A stretch of 63,214 bases of DNA, counting the filler, from Vermamoeba vermiformis (taxonomy: Eukaryota), in NCBI GenBank assembly GCA_045837725.1. It is 5 parts of 5 records of this genome, joined end to end, with 100 filler letters (N's around TTAATTAATTAA, not from the genome) between each part and the next. Parts side by side here need not be neighbours in the genome. Positions count along the whole stretch, not along the records: positions 29,077 to 49,298 come from JBEWZL010000173.1; 4 more parts are not named here. The stretch is one strand, 5' to 3'. The notes beneath the pieces were generated by a model. The model made no database searches and was not told the origin of the DNA. It was given only the letters and a program-made list of their open reading frames with translations. Below, piece after piece: positions 10,572 through 58,873 of the stretch; position 1 is the first letter of the stretch; each line of letters begins with the position of its first letter. Made by a program: the position numbers and the translations under genes.

Positions 10572-10641
10572 CAGAAAATCACATGGAATATAATTCAATC
10601 ATAAAATTACAGCTTTATTTTTTGATTTTGTTCCGACACGA

Positions 10642-30189: not shown

Positions 30190-31640
30190 TGTCTGAATAA
30201 AACATCTTGTCGACCACCTAGTAAGCCATCGTGTGAGTGCTCAAGTACGAGCTTGCGTAATGGCTCAGGAACTACTAGCTGTCAAATTGTCAATTGGGTC
30301 ATTGGGTTATCGAGAAGGCGATACAAGATATCGTTGTCAAGTAGCCATTCATGCTTATACATAAGTGTATAGAATCGTTGAAGATGATCTCTCGCAAAGG
30401 TCTCATGTACAATGAAGTCCTTGATATAGTTGATTGAAGGGTCTTCGTCTTGAGCCTTTACGAGTTGTTCACATGTCCAAGGCCACGGCATAGTCGTTTT
30501 AGACAAAAGTTCTGCAACTGGATAACGCCAGAGAGTGTCAGCGTTAGTGTGCTTGGATCCAGCTCAGAACACGACGTCGTAATTGTAATCCATCAGTGTG
30601 GCTTGCCAGTGGCTAAAGGTATATTATTGCCAACTTGATATGCTCGAGGACAGTTCGTAAATTCTTCAAATGTTCTTTCCAAGTGTGGGAGAATATGATG
30701 ATATCACCCAGATAGCAAAGGCAGATCTCGTATTTGAGTCCTGACAAGATCATGTCCATTGCACGTTGGAATGTCATCAGAGCATTTACGAGGCCAAATG
30801 GCATCACTTTGAATTGATAAAGACTGTGGTGTAATGAAGGCAGTCTTTTCCACGTCATCTGGGTGCATCATGATCTGCCAGTAACCAGAGACGCAGTCCA
30901 TGGTCGAAAACCAGACCATGCCAAAAGAGAATAGAGAGTAAGATCCAAACGAGGCAACGGGTACATGTTACGCACTGTTGTCTTGTTAAGACGCTGATAA
31001 TCGTTGCAAAAACAGATAGAGCCGTCTTTTTTTGCGCACCAAGACCACTGGTGAGGACCAAGGTGAAGCAGAGGGCTCAATGACGCCTGATGCAAGCATC
31101 TCATCAATAGCATCACCCTTGATCTTGCTCAGTGCAGCGAAAAACATAAGGCTTAGGTTGGACACCATGAGCGTGAGGTTCGGCGATGATGCGATGTTTG
31201 ACGTTGGTTTGAATTATGTCGAATGGATTTTGTTCAGAAATCTATCGCGATAATCCAGAAGGACCTTCTTGATCTGGATCAATTGCTTGGAAGTGAGTAA
31301 GACTACTGTTGAAGGAGAATTGAGAAAGAAATTGCTCCTCAGTGTCGGGTGACGGGTTGACAGGTGTCAATGTCAAAATGAGATTCACAAAATTGTAGAG
31401 TAGGGATTGAGCTTGCCAATAACGGTTCCTTTCTTGAGTGTAATAGGAAACATTGTGCTATTGGCCAAATTCAGCATAATAAGACCATCAGAAGAGACAC
31501 TATCGATAGTACACGCTTCGTATCAAAGTTTTGTGTTGTAGATCAGGTGACGGGACCATAATAGCTACAGTATTGGGTCATAACAAGACAACAATGGGAT
31601 TGATATAGGCCGTGAATGGTTTGAATTCCAAATCACAGTC
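30190..31640 (-). mobile_element. Decayed Ty3/Gypsy LTR retrotransposon pol fragment
   Basis: RT motifs [57 protein letters not shown] (from YxDD). RNase H end HTNADTL and integrase start LVVPEPLRKLVLEHSHD. Frameshifts, stops and an internal deletion. Confidence 0.9.
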
Positions 31641-31951
31641 CAACACAACTTGTTGTCGGTTGAAGAAAATAATTTATAATAATAATTTATAATAATTTCA
31701 CACTTTTCCAGTCAGGAGGTCACTTTTCCAGTCACTACCCAATTAGGAAGTGATGTTCTTGTACTCATTCAAGCAAGCAAATAGCAAATACTGCAAGAAC
31801 ACATACATGTATCAATATTTTTAGTAATTATTCAAAAATGTTCGGATCAGGTAACAGTGAACACCACTAAATTGTGTGTTTGTGCCACGTGAAACAGCAG
31901 TATTGACGAGTTATGCAGGCTTTGTTTTTACATCATTTTATCAATTAACTT

Positions 31952-33336
31952 TTACACAATATCAAGAACAGCAGGTTCATTGTTACCTCTCCAAAAGGGC
32001 AGTTTTTGAACTACATTGTCTTGAAACCAGGTTCTAATTAAATAATATGTTGTTATGTACCAGGCCATTGAACGATGCACAATCAAAGTTATAATTCCAT
32101 CCATAATCATAGCACCAAAGGTCACTAGCAACTTTTGGTTGACACTGCGATCCCTGAGAATGTATTCAAAGAGTATTACTTCTAATGCTTGCAAGAATAG
32201 TCCAAGCCAGCTTCCAGAACTCAATATCTGAGTAAGAAGTGCCAAAAACCCAAAATATACTGCAGATTGCGACCATTCATGGCCTTCAGGTGCAGGGAAG
32301 CTGTTTTGTTGATTGTAGTTGATAAACTGGGTCATCAATTTTTCTTCAATTGCAGCAAAAGCCAGCATTGCAGTGATGCCATTCTTCCAGTTGTCTAGCA
32401 TATTGCCTTCAACAATTAGAATTAATTCTTTAATTGAAGTTGATGTGAACAGGACTTACTTTTCTGGGCAGACAATTCATAATAATATGGAGATCCAATT
32501 CTGTAACTTTGTTCCCCACCATCAATCTGAGACCTAACCTTCGAACTACTTTTGCCAAGTCCAGATGTGAGATTTCAGGTCTTTCTGGGACCACTTGTAT
32601 CCACAGATAGGTAAGTACTCCTTTGTCCTTGATTCGCAATTCTACATCACTGATATCATTAGTTAAATTGCATGCAGTCAAATATTGCTTACATGTAGTG
32701 TTCTCTAGTAGGAGCCATTTCTGGAACTACTGGGGTTTGTGTAGTGAAGTCATTGATGATGAAGAACAGCACAAGATTAGCTCCTATAATTGTGATGACA
32801 GTTGAGGCAATGCTATTAGGCCATGCACCGTGGCAGAATGTTCCCAGCAAAATGATCAACATCCTTGAGAGCACAACTTTAGATGGCAGGGTTGCAAACA
32901 ATGAGGCTGCCCAAACAAGACCTCCAAAGTTAAATGCATAAGTATCCCTGTTTAATAGTTAGTTCTTCTCTGAAAAGTCCGATTCCAGTTACTTACCCGA
33001 AATTGACGAAATTGAATGACAATGCTGCCATCAATATGAAGAGAATGTTCTTTGCTTTTTCTCTTTTGGTCACTGGAGTTGTTTTTGAGTAACTGATAGA
33101 GATAGTAGAATGTTTGCCTTACTTTTGAGACCAATTATTATTATTGTAGTCCCTGGGTAGACTAAAGTACTGACAATCCTCCCAGTGGAAAGCTCCTGGA
33201 GGTACACTTTTTGAGGATCCAATCCCAGTTTGGTGCAGGCTTCCTGTACACATTGTTCTGCGGTGCTCCTAACACTATAGCTACGGTCTCCACAAACAAT
33301 AGAGTAACTGTAAAAAGTTAAATTGAAATCAGGCAT
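31952..33336 (-). pseudogene. Degenerate membrane-protein gene (Ubl-like N-terminus, hydrophobic possibly rhomboid-like C-terminus)
   Basis: Broken ORFs 33070-33336, 32689-32901, 32430-32681 and 31952-32401; CpG-poor; several TM-like stretches. Confidence 0.35.
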
Positions 33337-42198: not shown

Positions 42199-42232
42199 GT
42201 ACGACTTTCCTGGCTTTCGAAATTACATCTAT

Positions 42233-42267
42233 CGAAAGGTATTGTAAAAGTGCATTTGGGTACATTT
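42233..42267 (+). repeat. Left terminal inverted repeat
   Basis: CGAAAGGTATTGTAAAAGTGCATTTGGGTACATTT versus reverse complement of 49264-49298 CGAAAAGTATTGTAAAAACGCATTTGAGTAAATTT. Confidence 0.88.
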
Positions 42268-42270
42268 AGT

Positions 42271-43314
42271 TTATTTACGGTACATAAACTTTTGCTTTGC
42301 TCTTCTATTATTGTATTGAGGGCGGCCCAGGCTTGGTCTTCCAATAGAGTTGCGTATCACTCTAGGTCGTCCACGCTTTCCTTTGCGCACTGCATAGTGA
42401 AGAGCTTGCTTGTCCTGGTGAGTAATTTCAGTTTGTTCCAGCTCCATTGCCCATCCACTATAAGGACCAACAGATTCTTTGGATACATCTTCTGTTGGTA
42501 CATAGGGAAGCTGTCCCCCTGGTCCTTTCCACCAAATCTTCTTTCCACTGGAGTCAAAGGCACGTTGGGAGTCTTGTTTGCCATACACCTTCAGGAAATC
42601 ATTCTCAAACCAAGTTTTCATTTGAGCATCTTGCATGTTGTAGTGATCTGGTAACTTGGCAATGAATTCCATCACAATTGCATGTAGAGCATCCAACAGA
42701 GTTTGCAAAAACTGAGGTTCGTTCAGGAGGCTAGCAGGAGTGAAAGGTGGAATGTTTGCCTTATGGAGAGTTTCAGCACGCAGATAGTTTCCAACTCCAG
42801 GAAAGAAGTCTTGATCCAGCATCAATACACAGAGAGGAGTAGTAGCCAGGTTCTTGCGGGTAGCTTTCAACTTCTGTTGCAGGTGCTTTTTGAATGCTGA
42901 TGGTTCAAGGAAGAAGTCATGTGAAAGAGTGTCAGGTTTGTAATCCACATATATAACAATGTGGTTGCTGGGCTTGTGGAAGAGTCCAATGACCAAGCCA
43001 TCTGCACGATGGAAAGCAATAGCCACAAATTTGCTTTCAGCTTCATACTGTTCAGGGGTAAGAAACACAACTTGTCCTTTCATGCTGAGAGAGATGTAGA
43101 GAGTGTGCTTAAGTTGACGTTTTTGCCGCAGCTTGATAATAAGCCACTTTCCAATGGCAGAGGCAGAGAGAGTATACTGTCCATTCATGGTAGGTAGGGG
43201 CTCTGAAGAAGTAGGTACTTTGTATGGACCAGTGGATATTGAGTTGAACTTGTGGCCCTTTGCTTTGGCATTGATGGCACTTGCATCTAGCTTGTTTTCA
43301 AGGTATTCTGGCAT
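42271..43314 (-). CDS. NEIL1-like (Fpg/Nei) DNA glycosylase/AP lyase, intronless, C-terminal AT-hook
   Basis: N-terminal MPEYLE (catalytic Pro2/Glu3); SASAIGK; H2TH PLCVLMLDQDFFPGVGNYLRAETLHKANIPPF; zincless-finger-like LKVYG..DSSGKKIWWKGPGG; tail KRGRPR. Confidence 0.92.
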   Translation of the reverse strand: MPEYLENKLDASAINAKAKGHKFNSISTGPYKVPTSSEPLPTMNGQYTLSASAIGKWLIIKLRQKRQLKHTLYISLSMKGQVVFLTPEQYEAESKFVAIAFHRADGLVIGLFHKPSNHIVIYVDYKPDTLSHDFFLEPSAFKKHLQQKLKATRKNLATTPLCVLMLDQDFFPGVGNYLRAETLHKANIPPFTPASLLNEPQFLQTLLDALHAIVMEFIAKLPDHYNMQDAQMKTWFENDFLKVYGKQDSQRAFDSSGKKIWWKGPGGQLPYVPTEDVSKESVGPYSGWAMELEQTEITHQDKQALHYAVRKGKRGRPRVIRNSIGRPSLGRPQYNNRRAKQKFMYRK

Positions 43315-43492
43315 TTGTTGTGTTGTCTTTAGAATCAATTTAAAAATGACAGTTTGCTAAGAATTCTCCTTTTATACCCTACTATTTTAGAAAGTCAGCG
43401 AAATTTTGACGAAAAATCAACGAAATCTATTACTTCTAGAAGTTTCTCATTTTATTTAACTAGCAAGAATTTCGCAGAACGTCAGGAACTAA

Positions 43493-44948
43493 TTATTTGA
43501 ATTTCGAGAAGGTTTGCACTACTGCACTGAATGCCTCTTGAGACTCAGCTTGCTGTTGCTGTTGTAACAACAACATGAAATTAGCCTGTTGTTGTGCCAT
43601 TGCATGCCGATGGTGCACTTGTTGAAGCTCTAGCAGTTTTTGAAGCTGGAATGGTACGTTGAACAGTGGAGTGACATTGTGCGTGGCAGGTTCCAAAGCA
43701 ATCGGATTTGGAGAACAATCTTGATTAGAAAGAGACGGTGCATTTTGAAGAGCACTATCACTCAATGGTTGGGTTGGTTTGAGCAGCGTCTCTGGCTTGA
43801 GCTTTGGAGCCTCCATCACTTTCTTTTGTTGCTTTGGCTTTGGCTTGACACTAACAGAGCTCTCCGAGTCAGAGGATGAGGAGTCAGGTAATATCTTTGG
43901 AGCTGGCTTGCGCTCCTTTCTTCGACGCAGTGCCTGAGGGATTGCTTGCTTTAGCTCTAAGTTCAAGGTTATTAGATGATACTACTGATGTTTTTGATTA
44001 TACCTTTTTTGATTACTGGCACACTCTTCACAGGAGGAGAACGAGAAGAACGAGGTGGTTGGGTACGAGTTGCACTCTTTGGATGCATTTCTTTGGGCTT
44101 TAATTTGGACTTTGCCGGAGATAACTTTTTTTTCTACAAAGGTGAATAAGCTTTTATCTTGATAGATAGCTAGGTTACCTTTGCACTGATGTACTCCTTG
44201 AATAATATGTCCAGTTGGGGCTGTTGCCCAGAGCTTGTTTTGCCGTGGATTGTCAGGACCTCGCTGAACTTGACCTCGATGACCTTTGCTAGAGTTGGGT
44301 CGGCAAGAAGGACTTTGTTGTATTGTTTGTTTCTCTTAATGAGAAGGACAGTGTGGAGCCCAGCATTTGATTTCAAGGCAACCAAGTCTCCTGCCTCGAT
44401 GCAGAAGTTGTCCACTCTTCGAGTCACTTTGTAATAACACTTCTTTTCCCAAGGCTCTCCAAAGTAAATGAAGTACTCAGTGATGTCCTCTGCAGTGAGA
44501 GTTAACTATTGTAGAAGTGTACAAACAGTAGGACTTACTCTTGTCTTGTTCGGATGAAACTGGATCGGCGACAGGCTTTTCTTGGCCGTCCAAGCTAATG
44601 GCTTTATCTTCTATAATAATGCATTATAATATTATATTTTAGATAGTAGTGTAATTATTTATTACCTATAGTATTGAGGAGTTGATCTGAGCTTTTTTCT
44701 TTGGATCGAGCTAGATTTGAATCATCGGCAGAATTGTCAGCTATTGAAAAATGAAATTAAGCTTACATTAAGCTAATGTATATTATTTTACTATTATATC
44801 CTAATTATTAAAGGTAATATCTCATACCTAATGACTTCCGAGATGGATTCAGATCTGAGGAATCAGTTTCAGTCTTTTGCTCGGGAGGGCTTGCATCTTC
44901 GGGGGTTGTTGGTACTTCAATAATAGAGTTTTCTGGGTTATTAGCCAT
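43493..44948 (-). CDS. Transposon cargo protein with BAH/SH3-barrel-like domain and Q-rich C-terminus
   Basis: Spliced from MANNPENSIIE; central KCYYKVTRRVDNFCIEAGDLVALKSN..IEVKFSEVLTI; Lys/Pro/Ser-rich linker; Q-rich end. Confidence 0.55.
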
Positions 44949-46030
44949 TGTTGTGGTTATCTAATGACTTCCGAGCAACTTCTGATTTTGTTCTCCCAAA
45001 AAAGGAAGTTACCAGGGCTTTGGGCACGAGCCAATTTACCAAGCCATTTTCTTATTACTATCAACAAGATAACCCACAACTACTACAGCTACTATTAATA
45101 ATAACATCAATATCATTGGTCATTTTATTCAAAACACTATGGAGATTAATTCAAGGTAAGCCGGGTCAGATTTGATTTTCCTCCCTCTTCGGAAGTCATT
45201 AGAAATTATTCTTTTGAGTTATTAATAATTAAAAGGGCTTTAAAGTACAGCTCTAATAATATCCTAATGAAGGAATTGACAATTTAATGAAAAAAGTGAT
45301 CGGCACAATTTCATATCTGCCTCGCAAGTCATTTCTAATAATTATTCAGTGCTGTTAATATTATATGATGATATTAATATAGTATATAATGCACTTATGG
45401 GCTTTGTTTTGTTTATGCTTTGTTTATAGCTTATCTTTAATGCCAACTACCCCGTGCCCTCAGTAAAATGTTCGGCAACCAAGTTAAATGCACTTGTAAC
45501 TCCATATACAGCATTCAGATAACTCAGAAAAGATAGATAAATGAATATATTGTCCTATTTGACATTTGTAGCCTTTGTATGGCTTCTCAAGTTCTGCCGG
45601 CAGTCAGATCCAACTTTAACCACTTTCCAACACTACTTTGCCGAACTTCCTAAAGAGTAATTATATGAAGTATTAATTGTGCATAATATAAACGTGCAAT
45701 TACTTATCAAATGAAAAATCTTGACTGGTAGTTACAGTTCGGTTGTTGAGTCCTCCCATTGCGCAACTGTTTGCCGAACAAAACTAACTTAATATATGCA
45801 CTTAATACACCACATTATGCCTAATTCAATGATATTCGACTGTCTGAAAAATGACTCAGCGATGATGTCGAAACAAACTTTGCACCAACTTTTGCACCTC
45901 TGGTCTACGACTTTGCCGAACACTATTTCATTGATAATTGAATATTGTTAATCATTTATAGTTTATATATTATATTGTTGGCTCGTTGAAAAATCACTGC
46001 TCAAGTTAGTGACTGACTTGTCTTTTTTAG

Positions 46031-49000
46031 ATTTCAAGGATTCCTGTGGGGCTCAGCTGGTAGGACTTGGTGAGCTTTCTCATTAGTAGTACTAACCTAG
46101 AAACTAGGAATGAAAGATCTGTGCACTATTGAAACTGTTGCCCTGGTGCTTCGCCTAACACTGCAGTGTATTCCTGATTTGCAGCTGACTAGTAATTTCT
46201 TTCGCTTGCTTGCAACCTGGATTCAATTTGCACCATTATCAAGCTCAGCATTACATCAATTGAAAGTTGATTTAATTGAAGCTCTTGGACCAGTAGCTGG
46301 ATGGACTCCGTGCCAATCATACGTTTCTATTGGAGCAATACTGTCTGCTGCTATCAAAACCTTGCCCACAGCTGAAGCAACCCTTTTTTGCACTTCTGAA
46401 GAGCACAGATCAAATTGCCGCTGCCCCTTAACTATCAAACAATTCAACAACCCAACTGTTTATGTTGCTGAGAAACTTTCTGACAGTACGCTCTCCGTTC
46501 AGGCTTCAATTCACCATTTGATAGACTATTGCCAAAAAATGCCTATGCCGTGTGAATTTTGTGGAGAATTTGCAGTGGAACATCGTAAGAAACTCCAGTG
46601 ATGTCAAAGATATATTCTTACAAATGTGTTAGGAACAATGCACCTTCCAACCGTTCTCACAGTGGAGTTGGGCAGATATAAGAGACAGTTCACCAATATT
46701 AATTTACAAATTGAACCAACTCTCCACTTTGGAGATAGCACATATAGTCTACTAAGTGCTTTGATGTGTGATGGGGTGCACACCACGTGTTACTTTCTTA
46801 ACAACAACGCCACATACTTTTATGATGGGATGCAAAACAATGGTATAGCCTATCGAGTGAATGAAGATATCAATGTTAGCAAAAACAAACAATACATTGA
46901 TCATTTGGTGTACATTAAGCAGCAGGTCTGTTGACATTTGTCTGTATTCCAGTATTGACAATCTAAATAGGACCTGGCAACTAAGAAAGAAGTTAATGGA
47001 ATTGCATTGTTTCAATCCATTATATCAAAAGCTGAAGAGGAGCCACTCATCTCTCGCTCATTTTTCAGAGAGCTCACAGCCGTGAAAGTTCCCTCTCAGA
47101 AAGCCCAACATGCAAAGAAAGACAAACTAGTGAGTGAACAGTCAATAACAAAGGGTATGTTTTCGCTTCTAAAAAAACACCTCTAACTTGTTTACACCAG
47201 TTCAACAAGATAGCTGTTGTAATGCAAGGTGCACTTCATTGTTTACGTATCAACAGATTCTCAAATGTCGCAAAATGGTAGCTGACATGAATGAAAGTGA
47301 AAAAACAACTTGGCTATTGAAATTTATGGGAACCAACATGAATATATCAGATCCTTCAGTTGTGTTTTTGATCAATGGAATGTCAGTTTGTCAGTTGGCT
47401 TTCTGTCGGATCTATGGTGTAGCCGTTCAGAAAGTGATTCACTGCAAGCAAATGCACCTTAATGGCAGTACTGCAACTCTACATGGTAATTACTTTCGAG
47501 TATATGATACTCCAAAGAGAGACTCTGTTGCAGCATGGATTTCAGCTTATTGTGAAACCTATGGAGACTATGTTCCTACAAAGGATGAAATTCACTTACC
47601 ATCTCATTTAACGTAAGTTTGTATATAAAATAGAATATGGTTGTAATTACTAGCTTCAGAAACAAAGAGTGGTACAAACTTTTTGCAGAAGAGTGCAAAC
47701 TGCAACGGCCAACTGAAGATATTCCCAGTTTTGAGACATTCAAGCAAGTGAGGCACAAGCAATTTAAGGTACATTAACTTGAATCCTATTAATACTAATT
47801 ATCAATTTAGAATGTTAAAAGACCGAAAGAAACCAGACTGGGAAAGTGCTCAACATGCCTATTAATTAAACAGAAGCGACTTCAATCTGGTCTGTGTGAA
47901 AAAACTCTTTCAGCTCTTAAGCAACAAATGCAAGATCATATAGCCTATATTACCAGAGATAGACAAGGTTATCGAGTTCGAACAGATATTGCTATCAAGC
48001 AACCTCACCTCAAGATGAGTGTCATTACGGACAAAAGTGGCTCATTTTGGTTGCCTCATTTTCATCCAATGCCAAAAGAATGGACAAATGTAACTTTCCT
48101 ACCTGTCAGTTTTGTTGGCTTCATCAACCATGGTCTGAACAAGAGAGAATTGGTGTTTTTCAAGGAAACAGATTATGTAGCAGATTCAGACTTTTACATC
48201 TCACTGCTTTTCCATCACCTAAAAGAGTCACTTCTCACTCTAGACCCAGGCAAGAGACCAAGAACTCTTTACTTGCAAGTAGATAACAGTGCCGCAGAAG
48301 GAAAGAACCAGTATCTGCTACAGTTTGCAGCAGCTTTAGTGCACCATAACTGGTTCGATGAAATATTCATTCACTACCTTCAACCTGGACATACCCATGA
48401 AGACATTGATAGATTGTTTCAGTTATTCCACACTTACTTTCGATGGAAAGTTATAGAAACTATGGACCAAGCAGTGGAATTTGCCAGAGCCATCTATCCA
48501 AAAGACATTCTCATTCGTGAATTACAATGGCCAGTATATTCATGGAAGAAATGGTTTCTTGGCTTTTCACAGTCAATAAGTGGACATAAGGACAAGTATG
48601 CATTTTGGATCAAACCTGGACTTGACAACACTCCTTCTCTTTTGTATAAGAAACAGTCACTGGATAATGAATGGACGGAAGTTAAAGATGAACTTTTCAG
48701 CGCAGCTCCATCTGGTCAGCCTTCTGTGATACAACCCACTTGCCCTTCTGCCGATTTGATTCAAACTATTGTTAGCAAGGCTCAGAAATTCTTGTCAAAA
48801 CAAGTAAGCTTTCAACTTTGAAACCGTTTCTTAAGGCTAGTTTAGGCAATTGAATATTTCGAAGCTCTGGCACAATACAAACCGATTCAAAGTTCTGAAG
48901 CAATGTTCTCCATTGGGCAAGTGAAACCAGAAGTGCCTGCCCCAATAATTAGTACTAGCTCAAAACCAGAGGTAGAAGTGTTAACCAAAAAGCGCAAACG

Positions 49001-49241
49001 AGATTTCACTCAGGGTATGCTGTTGGCAACTATTTGAACCAATACTAATTCTTTTCAAGACCAAGAGGAATGGATTGTCAAAAGAGTAGTTGACCATAGG
49101 AAGAATGGAAACAGATTAGAATGGTTGGTTCTGTGGGAAAATGGAGAGCAATCGTGGGAACCACGAAATTGCTTCATTGATGCTGACCAAAGCAAAAACC
49201 AGGAATGGGCAGAGTATGAACAGAAAAGAAGGAAAAAATAA
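46031..49241 (+). CDS. USP-like cysteine peptidase - Sola-type DDD transposase - chromodomain fusion (5' exons probably start near 45440)
   Basis: FQGFLWG..DLCTIET (Cys box), CEFC, LPTVLTVEL, GVHTTCYF..YFYDGM (His/Asp box). In-frame splicing into CCNARC, LGKCSTC, VITDKS, LYLQVDNSAAEGKN, GHTHEDIDRLF. Last exon EWIVKRVVDHRK..EWLVLWENGEQSWEP. Confidence 0.82.
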
Positions 49242-49263
49242 CCAGTTGTCTTATAAAAGTGCG

Positions 49264-49298
49264 AAATTTACTCAAATGCGTTTTTACAATACTTTTCG
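49264..49298 (-). repeat. Right terminal inverted repeat
   Basis: Reverse complement matches 42233-42267 at 30/35 positions; abuts the gap. Confidence 0.88.
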
Positions 49299-49624: not shown

Positions 49625-51629
49625 TTATGCAAATTGAATGTCTTCTTCCGACTTAATTTCAATTACTGGCTGAGGTCCTTCTCGTCTGCCCAACGGATCA
49701 GCAACGAGTACCTCCTTTGGGAACAATACGCCCGTCTTCTTTTGGATCACAGTGATAGGAGTTTGGTAAGTCTTGAATCTACCGTACGGTTGGTTATATT
49801 CGGGGCCTTCAAGGTAGTTTCTGATGAGCTTATCCTGCGTCTGGATGTACGCGGTTGCCTACCAAGTTTTAGCATTGTCTGTTTAAACGTAAGATAGTAC
49901 TTACGAACAACTTGTTGTTGTGAAGAGTAACGACCACTTTCCAAAACTCGCTTGGAATTTGCACACCATCGTAGTAGCCGTCAACAGGACTCAGCACTGG
50001 GCCAGTGAAGACAGTGACAAGGAAATTGTTGTCAGTTGCGCGATTGAGGACGTAGTTCTCGAGCTCGAGCCACGTCTTCTGATTCAAGTCCTTGTGCTGA
50101 GGAGAGCAGTTGGTGAAGTGGAAGGTGTCTTCATTCGCATTAGTCACTTCGCCGTCATCTCCCCAGCATGGATCAAGTCTGCGAACCAAGTGACCACGAT
50201 CGAACATCAAACCTTCCTAATTAGGTAAAGAAGTTAATCCCTGACAACGACAAAGCAGTCTTAATATCCGTACCTTACGAGCGTTGGAGTAAAAAGTGTT
50301 TGACAACTGGTCTGCAAGAGGAATGCGCGGGTCGTACTTCCACACGTCGCGTCTGTGCACTTGAACCAGTTTTCTTCCGTCGATGTTGACTGCGGTGAAG
50401 AACGCAAGTCTTCGGTCCTTATTGAACACAATGCTGAAGTGCTCGTACTTGAACTCAGTGCCATTCTCGTGCATCGCAAGTTGGTCTTGTAAGTCGGGGC
50501 GAACAGTTGGCAACGGAACTTCGTGCTGCAAGAACGCGGGATCGTATCCGGATCGTCCATTCAGTTCGTCCTCGGAGAAAACGCGTTCGAGATTTCGAGG
50601 TGGTGCGGTTAAGAGAGGAGCAGGTGGAGCAGGCAAGGGTCGCATTATTTGACCGTGGAACAATCTGTTGGCAATCTCGACGATCTTAGCACTCTCCACA
50701 GCAACATTGGCAACACCATAGACGCCACCGTAGTGCAGGCCAATAGCTCTTCCAGTGACTAGCGACAGAATCACTGAGCCACTGCTGCCTCCGAGAGTCG
50801 TTGCGTCGTGGAAGATGTCAGTGGGATGGTGCAGCATTGTGTCGTCCTTGTAAGCGTAGCCAGGCGACAGTCTCTTGACGTCGTAGATGTCGTCAAAGTA
50901 GTACGACATTTCTTCATCAGGATTGCGAGAGTCGTAGGCAGGATGGCCAATGACGACTATCGGATGCTTCTTAGGCAAATGACCGACGACAGCGCCGGGC
51001 TCCAAAGGAATAGGACTGCGAGGCGGATGGTTTACCGGCCATGCCAAGCGAAGAATTGCGATATCCACGCCGTAATCAGCTTCAGCTGCTGAAGCAATAT
51101 AGAGCACCTCAGCAATTCCTGCCTAAACGGGAAAGTGTAAGGAAGGAAATTTCATCGAGTTTGCAATGCCTACCTCTTCGGTCACGAGTGACAGATGCTC
51201 AGCAGTGAAGTTCACTTTGACTGTGATCCCACGCTGAATTTCTCTATTGGTCGCGCAAAAACATAGCGCCACGTGTCTGTTAGTGACCATGATGTTGTCG
51301 TGGATGAGCCATCCGGTGCCAAAGTACTTCATCAATTTGATTTTTGGGTTGTGAGACACAGCGTAGATTCTGCCCACGGACCGCGTGAAGTTCTTCACCA
51401 TGTAGAAAGCGAGCTCGACTTGCTTTTGAAACGGACCAAGTGGGACAGTAGGGAAAGTATCATTTTGGATCTTCACCGTGGGTCTGCCTCGTGCGTAGAT
51501 GATGGCCTCACGTTTATTTTCGTCGCTTTCCACTATTAATCATGAGCATTAGTTAAACGCTAGGCGAAGATGAATTACTTGCGTACATTGCGGCGGGCGA
51601 GCTGGTTTAAAGCTGCTGTTGCGTTCCAT
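49625..51629 (-). CDS. Trypsin-like serine protease fused to DNA/RNA non-specific (NucA/EndoG, beta-beta-alpha-Me) endonuclease, bacterial-type
   Basis: EAII..RP..IQND; triad TNRHV / VDIAILRL / HDATTLGGSSGS; linker GYDPAFL; nuclease YEHFS..RRLAFFTAVNIDG, FDRGHLVRRLDPCWG, TFHFTNCSPQH..LNQKTWLELE, IPSEFWKVVV; four GT-AG introns. Confidence 0.92.
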
Positions 51630-53836: not shown

Positions 53837-55921
53837 ACAGAAACACCTTTAGCGTCCTCTTACATCTATTTTGCTGTCATTTCAAGTGAAGGACATCTAT
53901 TTTTTGGTTCAGCGACCAATCTCTGGGACCATCAGAATACGCACAGAAAGCATTGGCCCACCAGCCATAAACTTTAGCTGAAGCAAAGGTTTGAACTTTG
54001 GATCTGTATCGCTTGAGTTCTAAACTTTCTTTCTCGTGTCCTGTCTGCAGTCATGGACGTTTGTTCAGTACATTAATTATTTGAAGTTGGAGAAGCCAAA
54101 CCTCAAATGTCTCCCCTTGTGGGTCCTTATCTTATCTTGCAGAATGCCATTGGAGGCCTTTTGCATGTGGTGGGAATTTTAACTGAGATCTTGCAAGTCA
54201 ATTTGGATGCTCTATCCATTCTCAGTGAAAGCTCAGTGAACCCTATGGCTAAAGGAGTACGCATGAACACTGCCAAGCTTGACACGCACTTGAAATCCAA
54301 TCATTGTCCAAGAGAACTGTAGTGTGGACATGACTCGTGCAAATGATAAACGTCACTGGGCACTGCAATGCTCCAGGGCCCTGGGTGAGCGCTCTGTTCT
54401 CCAAAGAACTTTCCAGTGCCAAGTATTGACCACGCATCCATCATAAACTGAAGATACTATGTCCCGTCCGCCTTTGCAGAACAATGACATTTTCCCTCCA
54501 GAGGTTGGCCAGGCCAAGTTGGCCAGTGTGGCCAAGCCTTTGTGGCCAAAAGCCTCCCGATGCCAATAGTAGCCCTTCCTGGGTCCGCCAGTGCTAATGG
54601 CAAAGTTTGGTATTAGTTGGTCTATTACTAACATCAGTGGACACGGCAACCCCATATCCGCCACTAGTTTTATTTTACTTATTTGATTAAGCGTATCACA
54701 CCAGCAGCTGTGGACAAATTCATATAAATCAAATTGAATCTTGCAATTATGTTGTTGTACCAATTGGTGATGGATGCTGACAAATTTCACTAATTTAAAA
54801 AAATCTTGGATGACTACGTATCATATAGCAGTGTGCCACTGGAAAAGTTAAATGCATTAGAGCAAAATAAATATTTCCATGAGTTCTTTAAAGAACATTT
54901 TGCAGCCTATTTTCTAAATGCCCAAGCTGTGAGCCTAAGCCGGATAACCGTAGTACCTTGGGTCCGCTGGTGCTATTGAAAAGTTTGGTGTAAATAGGTC
55001 AATTGCTAACACCAGCGGATGCAGCAACCTAAAAGACACACCCCATGTTTTGCCATTCAGTTTCTTCTTGGTGGTAGTTCAACGCTACACTCAATGAGCG
55101 CAGTGTGGCAATGATATCAACAACTTGACTCCCATGGAAACAGCCATATTTTCTGATGTTCAGCTTCCAGAAAACGGTTGCCAGACCAGATGTATGCCAT
55201 GGTCTCTCCTGTAATTTGATTTTTTGGATAACTTTGTTGAATATCTATTTACAACTTCCCCTTATGCAATCAGAGGATGAATTGAAAGGGCTACAGAGAT
55301 AAAGGAAAAGGGAGAGAACTGAACATCATATCATGTGGTTCAATAAAATTCAATTCATGCAGCAAGGTGAAAGGTGCCATTGCTCTTTGCGGGGCAATCT
55401 AAGTGCAAAGACTTTAATGTGCCTGAGTTAGTAGTAAACAGAATTTGCTCCAGTTTGTTTTTATAGTGGTCTTTGTAGTATGCCAGATCTTCATAGAAAT
55501 TGCAGTTTAATGAGCACCAAGGCGCACTGAAGACCTGTTCGGATCCTAGGGTCAGAAATACCAGTTTGCATTAAATTTAGTGAGGGATTGTCTTTGTAGG
55601 AGTAGGTCGCTGGCTTCCATGCACCATGCTTCTCATTCAATGCAACATCGGTATTCATTCAATGCTAAACCTCCATGTCAGCCTGTGTGAGCCTGAAAGG
55701 ATAATCAAATGAAGTTGCCGTTGTTGGCATGACCTGACAGACACCACTAATGGCTTGTCACCCCCACGCCCAAAGTGCTCCTTTTACAGCTGGCACCTGG
55801 ATCCCCAGAAAGAGTTTGTTGTTACACACAATTTTTACGAGGAGTTTTTTACTTAGGGACAGGGACCAAAATTAGGTTGAAAAATTTCATTTCCACATCC
55901 CACCAACAACAAACGGATGCT
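53837..55921 (-). pseudogene. Degenerate CpG-poor remnant, probably mobile-element derived
   Basis: Short broken frames, isolated contig, low CpG; no firm family assignment. Confidence 0.35.
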
Positions 55922-56021
55922 NNNNNNNNNNNNNNNNNNNNNNNNNNNNNNNNNNNNNNNNNNNNTTAATTAATTAANNNNNNNNNNNNNNNNNNNNNNN
56001 NNNNNNNNNNNNNNNNNNNNN
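55922..56021. other. Assembly gap with linker
   Basis: N run containing TTAATTAATTAA. Confidence 0.97.
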
Positions 56022-56110
56022 TTACATTATATTGCTGATATTTATTGCAGTAATATTTTCGGCATATTTATTTTAATACTATATTCTACATTTCTAACTT
56101 TTTACTTTAG

Positions 56111-58873
56111 TTGGCGAATCCTCAGCTGCAAGCACTTTCGTTAAAATCCAAAGTGGATATTTACCTGGACTTTTTGGTGAAGGCTCGCAATCGAAAATGG
56201 TTCGACGCAGGCTACGCAGATGAACTCGTACGGCAAATTCTCCTTCATCCAAACCACGCTAGCCGCGAAGATTTCATCTTCTACTTTGTCCTCTTTGCGT
56301 ACCATCAAATGCTGCCCCCGTTGGACGACCAAAAGCTGTATTATCCTCTTTGGTACTTTGAGTACCGCGATCGTGTCGCGAGCACTCTGGGACTGAAAGT
56401 GGACGGTCAGCAGTGGTCCGATTTTAACACCGCATTCAACGTGTTTCCTTACCGGCTTCAATCTGCAATGGCAATGTGCGCCGTTCGTGCCTCGTGTCGA
56501 CAATCAATATCGGGCATGGAAGTGCAAAGCCAATTCTACTTTCTCTGGTGCGCTCTTCGCTTCAAGATGGCCTATTGGCAGTCAGATGACACATTACGAG
56601 TTCTCCTTGATGAATTGCAAGCCGAGAACCCGAAATGTAATTATGACTCGCCCTTGTTCACGCTTGACCATAAAAATTACCTCGCGCCTCCCCTTCAAAG
56701 TATGTTTCTTTGTTACCGGTATTTGTCTAATTTCCACGTTAAGGGACTATCCTTCCCGTAAATACAATATCCAAAAGTCAGCAAAAGAAGAACAAGAAAA
56801 AAAGAGCGGATGCTGGCATTATTGAACAGATCCGGTTCGAACGTGTTGGATTTATTGGCGAATGTCATGGCATTGGCGAACGCTGGTTCCATCCAGAGCA
56901 GTTTAATACTGCAAGGGCAATTTACGTCATTTCTACAAGTAACCGAAAGCGCAAGATCGACGAAGTACGAAGCGAAAGCAGTGCACCGAAACGCAGAAAG
57001 GTACGATAAAAAGGAATGTAATCATAACTGAATATTTGTTATTTAGATCGATGATAGTTTTCGGCTAGAGGATCACGAAATCCAAATCTCCGATCAGCCA
57101 GATCAAGCCGAACAATACTCGCCAGTAGTAAGCCCTCGTATTTATGATGCAATAGAAATGCCCGTAAGTAAATATTTTACTGCATATGAACCTTATTGCT
57201 AATACCAATAGGATTCCCCAAACGTGCCTGCAACTCCGCCATCCGAAGGTGAGCAAGCCGAAGAAGTTGCACGCGTTGGCAAAGTAATTTCTGGCCAAAA
57301 AGTTGCTGTGGACAGCGAGGATACACGAAGAACCCTTGAAGAAAACGTACCTGCTTTGCGTGCAACAACAGCGAACGACGTGATACCTGTTACGCTCTCT
57401 CTTTCGTCAGTGCCACGCGAACTCTGGCTTGGCATTATATGGGATCTGTTGCAGACGCCGCGTGCTATAGCTTGCTTCGCTCAGACATGCCACCAAGCGC
57501 TAGAAACTGTCGTTGATTGCTTCTCTCGGAGTGCTACTTGGCAACGCTTCAAGATCTACGCCAAGTTTGCTTCCTTGGGTCTCAAGTATGAACTAGTCCA
57601 GCCTCATGAAGTGTATTCTTACCACTTCGAAGTCGACACTCTGCGCTCTTTTCGGCTCAACGCAACATCTTTTGGTCAGCTACGCGAAGCCCACTTCCAC
57701 CACTTCTGCCTCGTGCCAGATGACATCTGCTACGTACTACAAAGTTGTACCAACATAAGGACACTGGCTTTTCATGGCTCTAACTTAATTCCTGAATCTC
57801 TGGATAATTTATCGCGGATGTAAGTTTCCTTGCACGGATTTGAACGACAAAAACTAATTTATTCGTTAGGGCAACCCGAATTCAAGCACTACAAATAAGC
57901 GAGCCGAACGCTGTCTTGGGGAAGGCGAGGGTACACCTTAATATCTCCCAAAATCTCCTGCCGATCTGCTTTCCAAATCTGGCGGCTCTTTCGATGCGAA
58001 ACATGACCATGGCGACGCAAACTTACTACATGCCCGGAGCTTTATCAACCCGTCTTTTGTTTTTGGATTTAAGAACTAAGGGCTACGTTAACAACTTCTA
58101 TGGCTTTTTGAAGATGCGAAATCCGTCGACAACTTCCGTCATAATAGAGCTCTACAAGCTCTTTCCTAATCTCCGTGGTTTACGCTTGCCGTTGGCCGAT
58201 CGTCCTGCCCTAGGGAGAAAAGTGGTAATCACTTTCCCGACCCCGCCTCCCTCTTTGGAGTTTTTGGAGTTGTACGGCTATGCAGATCTGGGCGTTGAAA
58301 TCGATCTTGATCACGTTGATACTGGGCAGCGCTTGCGCCATATCAGCTTGATTGATTTGCTCTTTCGGTTTCCGTTCCGCGAGACTCTCAGCCTACCGCC
58401 CGATTATGGCGATAAGGATAGGAAAAATTGGTCGCTGTACATTGGAGGTACTACGCTGACCTTAAACTCGCGCATCTTTGAGGCACTCCTCAAGCAGAGA
58501 CCGTAAGTAATTGTATTTAACTGAAATATTTTTTTATTAATTTAATTTAATTAGGTTTTCTTGGGATTACAAACAAGGCGTTGAAGTACGCCTGATAGAG
58601 CGCCCTAATATCTTTGCCGAGTTGTTCGACATCGCACAGAAGATTGCTATCAACTCTTATTCGGAAGCCGAGAGGCAGATGCTGATCGAGAGAAATCGAA
58701 GCTCGAGCCGTTTTATGCCAGACACACCTGATTTTCGTTTCGCTTCGGATGTGGTAAAAGAAGAGTACTACCGATTAATGAAGCTTCCTGGCGTATTTGA
58801 AATCCGTGACCGCGCTAATTTCAGGCGCTACAAAGATTGGTTCGACTGTTTCGTTGCCGAAGATCGCTTATAA
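56111..58873 (+). CDS. Large multi-exon protein with internal F-box-like motif and degenerate LRR-like region (5' end missing)
   Basis: Exons from 56111 splice in frame (via a RKRK..KRRK exon) into ORF 57224 with LSSVPRELWLGIIWDLL..AIACFAQTCHQ; later FPNLAAL / FPNLRGLRL / LEFLELYG. Confidence 0.55.

What the first reader, a model, noticed from the sequence alone, without database searches (positions are those of the whole stretch)
42233..49298. TIR-bounded Sola-like transposon carrying a DNA glycosylase and chromatin/ubiquitin modules: candidate anti-silencing element
Seen: 35-bp TIRs (30/35) enclose exactly three genes. The NEIL1-like stop codon begins 4 nt past the inner edge of the left TIR and the transposase stop lies ~20 nt from the right TIR, so the glycosylase is cargo rather than a neighbour. 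The three frames appear intact although the element is CpG-poor. Known: the LQxDN..GHTHEDID core is typical of Sola-type DDD transposases. Other DNA transposons carry epigenetic effectors (fungal KDZ/Plavaka elements with TET/JBP, plant VANDAL with VANC). I know of no Sola element with a Nei glycosylase. Inference: glycosylase + BAH-like reader + chromodomain + USP-like peptidase may form a toolkit that reads or erases host silencing marks, or repairs its own deamination damage.
Basis: partly seen in the sequence, partly recalled or inferred. Interest (0 to 1): 0.92.

Follow-up and report, generated by a model that had tools for sequence, protein, structure and literature searches.

The report
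Transposon carrying a DNA-repair glycosylase gene
This is a real, multi-copy 7-kb DNA transposon of a freshwater microbial eukaryote that carries, besides its transposase, a well-conserved NEIL1-like DNA glycosylase and a second chromatin-type gene as its own cargo, a combination I could not find described.

Summary
Imperfect 35-nt terminal inverted repeats (30/35) at 42233-42267 and 49264-49298 enclose three genes. They are an intronless NEIL1-like Fpg/Nei glycosylase, a spliced gene with a weakly BAH-like beta-barrel, and a roughly 920-940-aa transposase (DUF7869, RNase H fold, D-D-E/D motif) ending in a chromodomain.

The glycosylase is cargo, not a neighbour:
- In three diverged metagenome relatives (about 68% nucleotide identity) the gene-2/glycosylase order is kept.
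- In L001 and in a fourth, degenerate relative (L004), homology stops at the repeat tip.
- Glycosylase dN/dS is 0.07-0.16.
- In a DNA run of the same organism, glycosylase and transposase unitigs have the same depth, about ten times that of the flank.

The element has CpG o/e 0.42 in a genome at about 1.0.

Not shown: the target-site duplication (the right flank is lost in a scaffold linker), Sola membership (no reference library here), the USP-like peptidase call (no Pfam or PDB sequence hit), expression, and any function.

The anti-silencing or anti-decay role is inference, at about 0.35. I found no Fpg/Nei glycosylase reported as transposon cargo. I rate it a new variant of a known kind.

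The parts
42232..42267 (+). Left terminal inverted repeat (tip at 42232 or 42233)
   Evidence: Inverted repeat 35 nt, 30/35. Homology with the diverged relatives L001 and L004 ends at 42231. The termini align across 4 ends. A flank contig of run X2 leaves the window sequence after 42231.
42271..43314 (-). Intronless gene for a 347-aa NEIL1-like Fpg/Nei DNA glycosylase/AP lyase with a C-terminal AT-hook-like tail
   Evidence: Pfam Fapy_DNA_glyco 26.3 bits (cut-off 25.5) and H2TH 32.3 bits (cut-off 34.7). Best PDB sequence hits are NEIL1, E 9.5e-11. P2, E3, E6, K56, N176 and R179 are conserved against distant Nei-like proteins. dN/dS is 0.07-0.16 against relatives.
43493..44960 (-). Spliced accessory gene 2 (about 6 exons read by eye): acidic N-terminus, conserved beta-barrel domain, K/S-rich linker, conserved Q-rich C-terminal helix
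   Evidence: ORF pieces. tblastn to L001/L002 gives 60-70% aa identity for the domain exon, 74% for the C-terminal helix, and a poorly conserved linker. The splice sites were read and are not confirmed by RNA.
44173..44505 (-). Exon of gene 2 encoding the conserved ~105-aa beta-barrel (weakly BAH-like)
   Evidence: Alignment A2. AF2 gives pLDDT 70.3, with one of five models good. Foldseek finds no match at E<=0.001. The VIA wide top 3 are Rsc2, AIPP3 and EBS BAH domains, Z 8.9/8.8/8.6.
44961..46109 (.). Divergent intergenic region (GC 0.345) with a cluster of four TTGCCGAAC motifs (45470-45921) and a perfect 15-nt inverted repeat (44960-44974 / 45189-45203)
   Evidence: The 9-mer has 5 matches in the window, 4 of them here, against 0.40 expected. 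Repeats. A role as promoter or binding sites is inference.
46110..49241 (+). Spliced transposase gene (about 920-940 aa, 7 predicted introns)
   Evidence: In-silico splicing gives one open frame from the ATG at 46110 to the stop at 49239-49241. The start codon and the last acceptor are uncertain, and no RNA support was available.
46110..46934 (+).
   Evidence: No Pfam family at E<=1. No USP among PDB sequence hits. No counterpart found in the full-length relative P0011, the only one compared. The Atlas lead is weak: a UCH family on 11% of the rank-3 cluster (score 0.94) and on 73% of the rank-17 cluster (score 0.89).
47173..47616 (+). Cys-rich (CCxxxC) N-terminal region shared with other DUF7869 proteins, presumed DNA-binding
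   Evidence: BLASTP to P0010 residues 85-232 gives E 2e-14. The DNA-binding role is inference.
47811..48821 (+). Catalytic exon: DUF7869, an RNase H-like DDE/D transposase core (D74, D158, E197/D198/D200 of the exon translation)
   Evidence: Pfam PF25273 E 4.7e-39. The acidic residues are conserved in A3. The AF2 model has pLDDT 81.2 with beta-beta-beta-alpha-beta-alpha-beta-alpha order. Foldseek best hit is IstA at 6.5e-5. VIA gives Mos1 Z 9.7, Metnase 9.6, IstA 9.4 and retroviral integrases 8.3-9.4.
49038..49241 (+). Last exon: C-terminal chromodomain of the transposase
   Evidence: Pfam Chromo E 0.0016, 18.8 bits, below the 25.1 cut-off. PDB sequence search gives HP1alpha (CBX5) chromodomain E 1.3e-4, followed by HP1 and CDY chromodomains. 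Two of the three aromatic-cage positions are aromatic in that alignment.
49264..49298 (-). Right terminal inverted repeat, cut by the contig end or linker
   Evidence: L004's end also matches it at 88.6% over 35 nt.

Best explanation
The region 42232-49298/9 is one copy of an autonomous cut-and-paste DNA transposon, recently active in this microbial eukaryote.

Shown:
- Its transposase has an RNase H-fold DDE/D core (Pfam DUF7869) and a C-terminal chromodomain.
- The element is bounded by TIRs of about 36 nt, conserved across diverged relatives.
- It is present at about ten near-identical copies.
- Two accessory genes are part of the mobile unit and under purifying selection. One is a NEIL1-like Fpg/Nei glycosylase with its catalytic residues intact and an AT-hook-like tail. 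The other is a protein with a small beta-barrel domain.
- The element and its relatives are strongly CpG-depleted in a genome that is not.

Inferred mechanism:
- The transposase binds the TIRs and moves the element.
- Its chromodomain tethers it to methyl-lysine chromatin.
- The host marks the copies by CpG methylation.
- The element's glycosylase/AP lyase excises oxidised or deaminated derivatives of (methyl)cytosine in or near the copies, possibly guided by its AT-hooks and by the gene-2 protein, and nicks the site.
- Host base-excision repair then restores plain cytosine. This counters silencing and/or the C-to-T decay of the element.

My odds are about 0.9 for the anatomy (real transposon, glycosylase as selected cargo) and about 0.35 for this functional reading. 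The confidence given is a blend.
For: Boundaries and mobility:
- TIRs 30/35.
- L001 and L004 (about 68-70% nucleotide identity) lose homology with the window exactly at the TIR tip. L001 then runs on for 1158 nt of unrelated flank.
- A water-metagenome contig (X3) joins the same left tip to a different flank. An X2 contig follows the left flank to 42231 and then leaves, a candidate empty allele.

Cargo:
- The gene-2 then glycosylase order is kept in L001, L002 and L003. The adjoining TIR is seen only in L001, and in L004 next to a degenerate glycosylase.
- In run X2 all 6 listed element unitigs, which include glycosylase piece 42578-42936 (4287.5) and transposase pieces (4685.6, 4849.3), have depths of 4092-4927. 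The 2 listed flank unitigs have depths of 383 and 611.
- Glycosylase homologue P0002 and transposase homologue P0006 each have a 7167-bp longest contig. P0001's cluster sits on contigs of 7139 and 7136 bp, about the size of the element.

Selection:
- pN 0.18-0.21 against pS 0.65-0.76. dN/dS is 0.07-0.16 in the 4 pairs with a finite dS, out of 5 pairs printed.

Enzyme state:
- M1-P2-E3, E6, K56, the H2TH motif with N176/R179, and a zincless C-terminal finger all align with NEIL1-like proteins.

Transposase fold.

Motive for a DNA-modification role:
- CpG o/e is 0.42 in the element against 1.02 and 1.01 in the flanks, and 0.22-0.36 in the four related loci.
- NEIL1 has been tied to TET-dependent demethylation (PMC5566547 and PMC4117777; title and start of abstract seen in the listing).
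- Transposon-borne TET/JBP is read as anti-silencing in fungi (PMC12730594; abstract and passages).
Against: - No functional, expression or methylation data. The two RNA runs laid are from a strain only 90-95% alike on the flank and gave no reads on the element, which says nothing either way.
- No Fpg/Nei enzyme is known to remove 5mC itself. A demethylation role would need a host oxidase or deaminase, and I could not look for one because no genome is held.
- CpG depletion shows that C-to-T decay happened anyway. It could also reflect history in other hosts or selection to avoid CpG.
- A diffusible enzyme does not obviously favour its own element.
- The conserved finger arginine of Nei/NEIL1 is lysine in the window copy, P0001-P0003 and P0012.
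- The reader domains are weakly founded. BAH-like scores Z 8.6-8.9 only, and the chromodomain is below the Pfam cut-off.
- The transposase was not seen on the same DNA as the glycosylase in any relative whose sequence I could read. L001-L003 end before it.
- The TSD is not established.
Confidence: 0.5

Rival explanations
1. The glycosylase/AP lyase serves transposition or self-maintenance rather than silencing. It would process or repair DNA at excision and insertion sites by beta,delta-elimination nicks feeding gap repair. Alternatively it would simply lower the mutation load of a heavily damaged, heterochromatin-resident element.
For: Fpg/Nei enzymes are bifunctional repair enzymes with conserved catalytic residues here. 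The gene lies 3 nt from the TIR and is strictly co-inherited. Purifying selection is strong. The element shows the CpG-to-TpG decay such an enzyme might be selected to limit.
Against: From my own recall, not a search, no cut-and-paste DDE transposon is known to need a glycosylase. The two full-length DUF7869 relatives found (P0010, P0011) show only a DUF7869 domain at Pfam significance, but their neighbouring genes were not seen. A trans-acting repair enzyme gives no copy-specific benefit. CpG decay has not been prevented.
Confidence: 0.25
2. Counter-defence against a host base-editing or base-modifying defence. The enzyme would remove deaminated or otherwise modified bases that a host deaminase or modification system places on repeated DNA (a RIP-like process), before they become fixed mutations.
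For: CpG depletion is specific to the element and its relatives. The glycosylase clade is isolated, with only 1 of 315 hits at E<=1e-30 among 1.84 billion representatives, as expected of an arms-race gene tied to one element family.
Against: Uracil or T:G removal is normally the job of UDG/TDG/MBD4-type enzymes, not Nei. No host deaminase or RIP-like system could be looked for. The dinucleotide signal is plain CpG loss, which ordinary 5mC deamination explains.
Confidence: 0.12
3. The glycosylase is a passenger. A host NEIL1-like gene was captured by the transposon and carried along without benefit to it.
For: DNA transposons do capture host genes. The nearest non-element relatives are eukaryotic NEIL1-like proteins.
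Against: The ORF stays intact at 67-70% aa identity across at least four lineages, with dN/dS 0.07-0.16 at saturated dS. Clade-specific features are conserved down to the 35%-identical P0012: the N-terminal MPEY(L/I)ENK, the VGPxSGW extension and the GKRGRP tail. The order and distance to the TIR are kept.
Confidence: 0.05
4. The glycosylase is an ordinary single-copy host gene that merely lies next to a transposase, and the inverted repeats are chance.
For: None beyond the fact that the window holds only one copy.
Against: The glycosylase unitig depth equals that of the transposase and is about 7-13 times the flank. Homology with relatives ends at the TIR tip, not at the gene. The TIR core is unique to the two ends, with 0.03 matches expected.
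Confidence: 0.02

Closest known systems
Fungal DNA transposons that carry a TET/JBP dioxygenase (Kyakuja/Dileera/Zisupton, Plavaka and others; PMC12730594, abstract and passages read)
   Same: These are cut-and-paste DNA transposons that carry, beside the transposase, an enzyme acting on modified cytosine. The authors read that cargo as escape from methylation-based silencing.
   Different: The cargo here is a Fpg/Nei glycosylase, which acts at the excision step, not a dioxygenase. The host is a protist, not a fungus. The transposase is DUF7869 and has a chromodomain. That paper mentions a glycosylase only as the host's TDG.
Arabidopsis VANDAL (MULE) elements with the anti-silencing protein VANC (PMC5735166, PMC10398659; titles and abstract starts seen in the listing)
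   Same: A DNA transposon encodes an accessory protein that counteracts epigenetic silencing of its own copies. The motif clusters in non-coding parts of the element may be a parallel to the VANC binding sites.
   Different: VANC is a sequence-specific DNA-binding protein without known enzymatic activity. Here the accessory gene is a DNA repair enzyme, and no anti-silencing effect has been shown.
Mammalian NEIL1 (PDB 4nrv, 1tdh, 5itx and others)
   Same: It is the best sequence match among solved structures (E 9.5e-11). It shares the N-terminal Pro-Glu, the GK lysine, the H2TH motif and a zincless finger without the four cysteines. NEIL1 is linked to removal of TET-oxidised cytosines (PMC5566547, PMC4117777, listing).
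   Different: Similarity is low (25-29% identity to four more distant full-length Nei-like proteins). The finger arginine is lysine. The protein has an added VGPxSGW segment and an AT-hook-like tail. It is encoded inside a transposon and is multi-copy.
Sola superfamily of DNA transposons (Sola1-3; Repbase classification, PMC4455052 passages; defining paper Bao et al. 2009 not held, recalled only)
   Same: A TIR element with a DDD/E-type transposase. Atlas neighbours of the catalytic exon include DUF7869 clusters commonest in tardigrades, a phylum whose curated repeat library lists Sola (PMC11071193). That is only a coincidence of taxa.
   Different: No Sola reference sequence or profile could be compared, and the 4-bp TSD was not verified. 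From recall, no Sola element is described with a glycosylase or chromodomain.
Chromoviruses (Ty3/gypsy retrotransposons whose integrase ends in a chromodomain; recalled, not searched)
   Same: The DDE enzyme of a mobile element is fused at its C-terminus to a chromodomain, thought to steer integration into marked chromatin.
   Different: That is a retrotransposon integrase, whereas this is a cut-and-paste transposase. The chromodomain here is below the Pfam cut-off and has 2 of 3 cage aromatics.
Mimivirus Nei glycosylases (PDB 4mb7 'Endonuclease 8-like L720')
   Same: It is another Nei-family glycosylase encoded by a genetic parasite of protists, and it is a PDB hit at E 5.1e-5.
   Different: It is a giant-virus repair gene, not transposon cargo, and it scores weaker than NEIL1. 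Two scans of viral contigs and one phage search found no relative of this element's glycosylase or transposase.

Membership tests
Class II TIR (cut-and-paste) DNA transposon | Terminal inverted repeats at both ends | tested here: met
   35 nt, 30/35. The core is conserved in 4 ends from 3 elements.
Class II TIR (cut-and-paste) DNA transposon | Repeated in the genome as a unit with sharp ends | tested here: met
   Unitig depth is 4092-4927 in the element against 383-611 in the flank in run X2. Different flanks are joined to the same tip. Homology with relatives ends at the tip.
Class II TIR (cut-and-paste) DNA transposon | Target-site duplication or an empty site | tested here: inconclusive
   The right flank is lost at the linker. 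One X2 contig leaves the flank after 42231, a candidate empty allele, but its continuation is not in the window. TCTA precedes the tip at two insertions, and AAGA and ATAA do so in relatives.
DUF7869 (Pfam PF25273) | Score above the curated cut-off | tested here: met
   134.4 bits against a cut-off of 26, E 4.7e-39, covering profile positions 2-190 of 192.
RNase H-like DDE/D transposase or integrase | RNase H fold with three acidic residues on beta1, beta4 and the following helix | tested here: met
   The model has pLDDT 81.2. D74 lies on the first strand, D158 at the end of strand 152-157, and E197/D198/D200 at the start of helix 197-210. D158, D198 and D200 are invariant in 9 of 9 sequences, and D74 is kept in the 8 that cover it. 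The top structural matches are Mos1, Metnase, IstA and integrases. Catalysis itself was not tested.
Sola superfamily (Sola1/2/3) | Significant sequence similarity of the transposase to Sola reference transposases | not testable with these tools
   No Repbase or Dfam profile is on hand. Pfam has no family named Sola. The defining papers are not held.
Sola superfamily (Sola1/2/3) | 4-bp TSD (recalled from Bao et al. 2009, not seen) | tested here: inconclusive
   See the TSD row. Only left-end junctions were seen.
Fpg/Nei (H2TH) DNA glycosylase | N-terminal catalytic Pro2 and Glu3 after the initiator Met, and the conserved Lys of the GK motif | tested here: met
   M1, P2, E3 and K56 are nearly invariant and E6 is invariant in alignment A5, which includes distant Nei-like proteins. 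They are invariant in the element clade.
Fpg/Nei (H2TH) DNA glycosylase | Pfam N-terminal domain and H2TH domain above cut-off | tested here: inconclusive
   Fapy_DNA_glyco scores 26.3 bits against a 25.5 cut-off (passes). H2TH scores 32.3 against 34.7 (just below). Of 36 PDB sequences with E<=1, all are Fpg/Nei/NEIL proteins, the best at 9.5e-11.
NEIL1 subfamily | Zincless finger in place of the Cys4 zinc finger, with the conserved Arg | tested here: inconclusive
   The segment aligns with the NEIL1 zincless finger and has no Cys4. The Arg is Lys in the window copy, P0001-P0003 and P0012, and Arg in P0004. No phylogeny with named sequences was made.
BAH domain (gene 2) | BAH fold or sequence family | tested here: inconclusive
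   No Pfam hit. Foldseek gives no match at E<=0.001. The 3 VIA matches with Z>=8 are all BAH domains (8.9, 8.8, 8.6), then KOW and Tudor barrels at <=7.5. The model has pLDDT 70.
Chromodomain (transposase C-terminus) | Pfam Chromo above cut-off, and an aromatic cage | tested here: inconclusive
   18.8 bits against a 25.1 cut-off. HP1alpha scores E 1.3e-4, and most of the 32 PDB hits are chromodomains. Cage positions are W, W and G where HP1alpha has Y, W and F.
USP/UCH (peptidase C19) domain (transposase N-terminus) | Sequence family match with Cys and His boxes | tested here: inconclusive
   No Pfam family at E<=1 for either exon. No USP among PDB hits at E<=10. In the Atlas, a UCH family sits on 11% of one cluster (score 0.94) and 73% of another (score 0.89). 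The resemblance of the LPxxL..GxH..YDG stretch is by eye only.

The most novel reading that the evidence does not exclude
This is a transposon-encoded base-excision 'eraser' module. The element family would carry its own Fpg/Nei glycosylase, plus chromatin-reader-type domains, to remove host cytosine-methylation-derived marks or lesions from its own copies. That would make it an independent, glycosylase-based counterpart of the TET/JBP cargo of fungal transposons and of plant DME/ROS1 demethylases. It would be the first case of a Nei-family enzyme recruited for epigenetic counter-defence by a mobile element.
Probability: 0.3. Interest if true: 0.85.

Novelty: new variant of a known kind. Interest (0 to 1): 0.68.

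Why it matters
DNA transposons that carry enzymes acting on DNA modification are rare, and they show how mobile elements fight silencing. The known cases use TET/JBP dioxygenases or DNA-binding anti-silencers.

This element family has kept a base-excision glycosylase under strong purifying selection, 3 nt from its terminal repeat. It is CpG-depleted in a genome that is not.

If the enzyme acts on methylcytosine-derived bases, that would be a new route of transposon counter-defence and a new biological role for the Fpg/Nei family. It would also yield a compact, possibly chromatin-directed glycosylase of practical interest.

Even if the role is plain repair, it is a clear and testable case of selected enzymatic cargo in a eukaryotic cut-and-paste element. 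It also gives the Pfam family DUF7869 a function as a DDE/D transposase core.

Tried and rejected
- Whole-genome search: no genome is held for this window. Copy number, TSDs and the host's methylation genes could not be examined directly.
- RNA: no RNA holder was listed. The two RNA runs laid (X19, X21) gave 44 and 52 reads, none at 99% likeness or more and most at 90-95%. All lay on the left flank apart from a trace depth (0.07) in the last bin in X21. They come from a diverged strain, so this says nothing on expression or splicing.
The right flank therefore stayed unseen. The loose-end sequence after 42231 is not elsewhere in the window.
- Viral origin: two scans of viral contigs and a tblastn against phage records found no relative.
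- USP-like peptidase: Pfam and PDB sequence searches were blank, and only an Atlas lead remains.
- BAH-like: Foldseek found no match at E<=0.001.
- Sola classification: a search for 'DUF7869' in papers gave 0. The Sola papers found give no motifs. The defining papers are not held.
- Prior description: searches combining glycosylase, Nei or formamidopyrimidine with transposon, transposase, cargo or TIR turned up no transposon-borne Fpg/Nei glycosylase. Supplements were not read.
- Earlier findings of this scan: nothing on this genome, sequence or family.
- Other copies in the window: none by blastn or tblastx.
- Considered and rejected: a host gene beside a transposase, and a neutral passenger (see rivals).

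Full report
**What is in the sequence**

The window is eukaryotic DNA (short GT..AG introns, about 40% GC) built from contigs joined by 44N+12+44N linkers at 28977, 49299, 53737 and 55922. No whole genome is held for it.

The repeat finder returns inverted arms at 42233-42267 and 49264-49298, 35 nt long and 86% complementary. A 20-nt core of them matches nowhere else in the window (2 matches, 0.03 expected).

Three genes lie between the arms.
- An intronless minus-strand ORF at 42271-43314 (347 aa). Its stop lies 3 nt from the inner edge of the left repeat.
- A spliced minus-strand gene at about 43493-44960.
- A spliced plus-strand gene from 46110 to the stop at 49239-49241, 22 nt before the right repeat.

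An exhaustive walk over GT..AG introns of 35-130 nt gives a single open frame of about 920 aa with 7 introns of 41-75 nt for the third gene. The script enumerated 504 models and I looked at the longest. The start codon and the last acceptor are uncertain, and nothing is confirmed by RNA.

**The genes**

Gene 1 is a Fpg/Nei glycosylase.
- Pfam Fapy_DNA_glyco scores 26.3 bits (cut-off 25.5). H2TH scores 32.3 bits (cut-off 34.7).
- All 36 PDB sequences with E<=1 are Fpg/Nei/NEIL proteins. The best is NEIL1 (9.5e-11), ahead of plant FPG (2e-5), Mimivirus L720 (5.1e-5), MutM (2.8e-4), NEIL2 (5.5e-4), Nei (0.04) and NEIL3 (0.09).
- M1-P2-E3, E6, the GK lysine (K56), Q168 and G173-G175-N176-Y177-R179-E181 of the H2TH motif are invariant or nearly so against distant Nei-like proteins.
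- The C-terminal finger aligns with NEIL1's zincless finger. Its arginine is lysine in the window copy, P0001-P0003 and P0012.
- The tail has GKRGRP/GRP repeats. I read these as AT-hooks, a motif recalled from memory and too short for Pfam.

Gene 3's exon 47811-48821 is Pfam DUF7869 (E 4.7e-39).
- In an alignment of 9 family members, D158 of QVDN and H194-T195-H196, D198 and D200 of GHTHEDID are invariant. D74 is kept in all 8 sequences that cover it.
- An AlphaFold model (pLDDT 81.2) has the RNase H order of strands and helices, with those residues on the first strand, at the end of the fourth strand and at the start of the following helix.
- Foldseek's only 3 matches at E<=0.001 are IstA (IS21) chains.
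- The Foldseek-independent search puts Mos1 (Z 9.7), Metnase (9.6), IstA (9.4) and retroviral integrases (8.3-9.4) on top.
- DUF7869 is therefore a DDE/D transposase core.

The other parts of gene 3 are less clear.
- Exon 47173-47616 (a CCxxxC region) is shared with the family member P0010 (E 2e-14).
- The first roughly 275 aa have no counterpart in P0011, the only relative compared for this part, and no Pfam or PDB sequence match. 'USP-like' is left with only a weak Atlas lead.
- The last exon matches HP1alpha's chromodomain (E 1.3e-4) and many other chromodomains. It is below Pfam's cut-off (18.8 against 25.1 bits) and has two of the three cage aromatics.

Gene 2 has three recognisable parts: a conserved exon of about 105 aa, a variable K/S-rich linker and a conserved Q-rich C-terminal helix. 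The model of the conserved exon is mediocre (pLDDT 70.3, with the other four models at 35-44). Foldseek finds nothing at E<=0.001. The three matches with Z>=8 in the wide search are all BAH domains (Rsc2 8.9, AIPP3 8.8, EBS 8.6), followed by KOW and Tudor barrels. The tool notes that best Z values of 7-8 are common, so 'BAH-like' is a lead, not a finding.

**Is the glycosylase cargo?**

Four lines of evidence say yes.

1. Diverged relatives keep the arrangement.
   - The metagenome scan matched 262 stretches, of which 4 encode a relative (L001-L004, 63-69% aa).
   - blastn shows L001, L002 and L003 collinear with the window from the start of gene 2 through the glycosylase.
   - In L001 (4092 nt) homology ends at window position 42231, the repeat tip, and 1158 nt of unrelated flank follow. 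L004 ends the same way, and its tip also matches the window's right repeat (88.6% over 35 nt).
   - L004's glycosylase is degenerate (7 stops in the read frame), as expected of a transposon family.
2. Selection is strong. Nei-Gojobori estimates give pN 0.18-0.21 against pS 0.65-0.76. dN/dS is 0.10 (window-L001), 0.15 and 0.16 (window-L002 and window-L003) and 0.07 (L001-L002). dS was saturated for L001-L003, and L002 and L003 are identical in their overlap.
3. Depth is equal across the element. In run X2, labelled with the same organism code as the best holder, the listed unitigs of the left flank have depths of 611.3 and 383.1.
   - All six listed element unitigs have depths of 4091.5-4926.9.
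   - These include a glycosylase piece (42578-42936, 4287.5) and transposase pieces (46840-47822, 4685.6; 48959-49270, 4849.3), each with 0 differences from the window.
   - That is about 7-13 times the flank, and the same for cargo and transposase.
   - Of the 509 contigs laid, 380 were 99% alike or more, 112 were 95-99% and 17 were 90-95%.
   - X2 may be the source of the assembly, so this is not independent of the window. It is still a valid internal ratio.
4. Contig sizes fit. The glycosylase homologue P0002 and the transposase homologue P0006 (72% aa) both have a 7167-bp longest contig. P0001's cluster sits on contigs of 7139 and 7136 bp, about the element's length. This is suggestive only, because I could not read those contigs.

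A limit remains. In no relative whose DNA I could read did I see the transposase and the glycosylase together, since L001-L003 stop before it.

**Ends and target**

An X3 (water metagenome) contig joins a different flank to the same left tip and fits the window from 42228. An X2 contig follows the window's left flank to 42231 and then continues into sequence that is not in the window. The X2 contig is what an empty allele would look like, and it would put the first element base at 42232. Both insertions then have TCTA next to the tip, while L001 and L004 have AAGA and ATAA. Without a right junction the TSD is not established. One X2 contig joins a copy truncated at 46735 to CCCTAA repeats.

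**Composition**

CpG o/e is 0.42 in the element (glycosylase 0.26, gene 2 0.49, intergenic 0.60, transposase gene 0.35). It is 1.02 and 1.01 in the flanks. The two 3-kb bins that lie wholly inside the element are the lowest of 21 (0.51, 0.45). The related loci score 0.22-0.36, and L001's element part scores 0.25 against 0.58 in its flank. The family has thus long lived under CpG loss that the host genes here do not show. This fits repeat-directed CpG methylation but does not prove it.

**How isolated is the cargo gene?**

Against 1.84 billion representatives there are 315 hits at E<=1e-3 and 18 at E<=1e-10. Only 1 reaches E<=1e-30, its own clade (P0002). The next, P0012 (35% identity, E 1.1e-24), shares the clade's VGPxSGW segment and GKRGRP tail. 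After that come ordinary NEIL1-like eukaryotic proteins, such as P0014 from a protist transcriptome. The catalytic exon's Atlas neighbours are DUF7869 clusters from tardigrades, arthropods, chordates and diatoms.

**Where it occurs**

Sixteen of the 22 listed runs hold part of the stretch, 7 of them half its words or more, from 9 studies. They include water and aquifer metagenomes, of which I laid only X3 (15 of its 28 contigs at 99% or more).

**Explanation**

The anatomy is that of an autonomous, recently active cut-and-paste transposon with two selected accessory genes (about 0.9).

For function I commit to a reading at about 0.35. The glycosylase/AP lyase removes oxidised or deaminated (methyl)cytosine derivatives in the element's chromatin, so that host base-excision repair restores cytosine. 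This counters silencing and/or decay. The chromodomain, and perhaps the gene-2 barrel, provide chromatin targeting.

The links to known biology are these.
- NEIL1 has a reported part in TET-dependent demethylation (PMC5566547, PMC4117777; listing only).
- TET/JBP cargo of fungal transposons is read as anti-silencing (PMC12730594; abstract and passages).
- VANC of VANDAL elements counteracts silencing (PMC5735166; listing only).

Against this reading:
- Nei enzymes are not known to excise 5mC.
- CpG decay has happened regardless.
- A diffusible enzyme is not copy-specific.
- There are no functional data.

The rivals are a repair or transposition helper (0.25), counter-defence against a repeat-directed mutator (0.12), a passenger (0.05) and a mere neighbour (0.02).

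**Novelty**

Three literature searches for a transposon-borne Fpg/Nei glycosylase and one for DUF7869 found nothing. Supplements were not read, and subscription journals are mostly absent from the library.

I rate it a new variant of a known kind: a cargo-carrying DNA transposon with a new class of cargo. Sola membership stays open, because no reference could be compared.

Noticed in passing
window 45470-45921 and 44960-45203: Four copies of TTGCCGAAC lie within 450 nt of the divergent intergenic region (5 in the whole window, 0.40 expected). There is also a perfect 15-nt inverted repeat at 44960-44974 / 45189-45203. Both keep CpGs in a CpG-poor element and may be promoter or protein-binding sites.
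   Followed up: partly
window 46735 (run X2): One contig of the organism's DNA run joins an element copy truncated at 46735 directly to CCCTAA repeats. This is a telomere-capped broken copy, and it suggests a TTAGGG-type telomere.
   Followed up: no
window 42228-42232: Two different insertions (the window's and one in a water metagenome) have the same four bases, TCTA, next to the left tip. This is either chance (1 in 256) or target preference. The diverged relatives have AAGA and ATAA.
   Followed up: partly
window 7900-10569 vs 24933-27551; 10601-12665 vs 14029-16085: An inverted segmental duplication (82% identity, 2.7 kb) and a tandem duplication (83%, 2.1 kb) of host genes. The tandem pair encodes multi-pass membrane proteins with a coiled-coil tail.
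   Followed up: no
window 50217-51122 (-): An ORF combines a trypsin-like peptidase domain (Trypsin_2, E 5.2e-7) with a DNA/RNA non-specific endonuclease domain (E 2.2e-7). This is an unusual pairing in one reading frame.
   Followed up: no
window 30001-33000 and 54001-57000: Further CpG-poor 3-kb bins (o/e 0.53 and 0.69) lie in an otherwise CpG-neutral window. They may be other repeats under the same pressure. No similarity to this element was found.
   Followed up: no
window 28977, 49299, 53737, 55922: Identical 44N + TTAATTAATTAA + 44N linkers show that the record is contigs strung together. Adjacency across them, including the element's right flank, cannot be assumed.
   Followed up: yes
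P0010 and P0011 (C-terminal ~100 aa): Two distant full-length DUF7869 proteins end in a segment whose pattern (FWLAQI..V.YKLHYWE / FFLAKI..VRVQFWE) looks like a small chromatin-reader barrel. If so, C-terminal reader domains may be a general habit of this transposase family.
   Followed up: no
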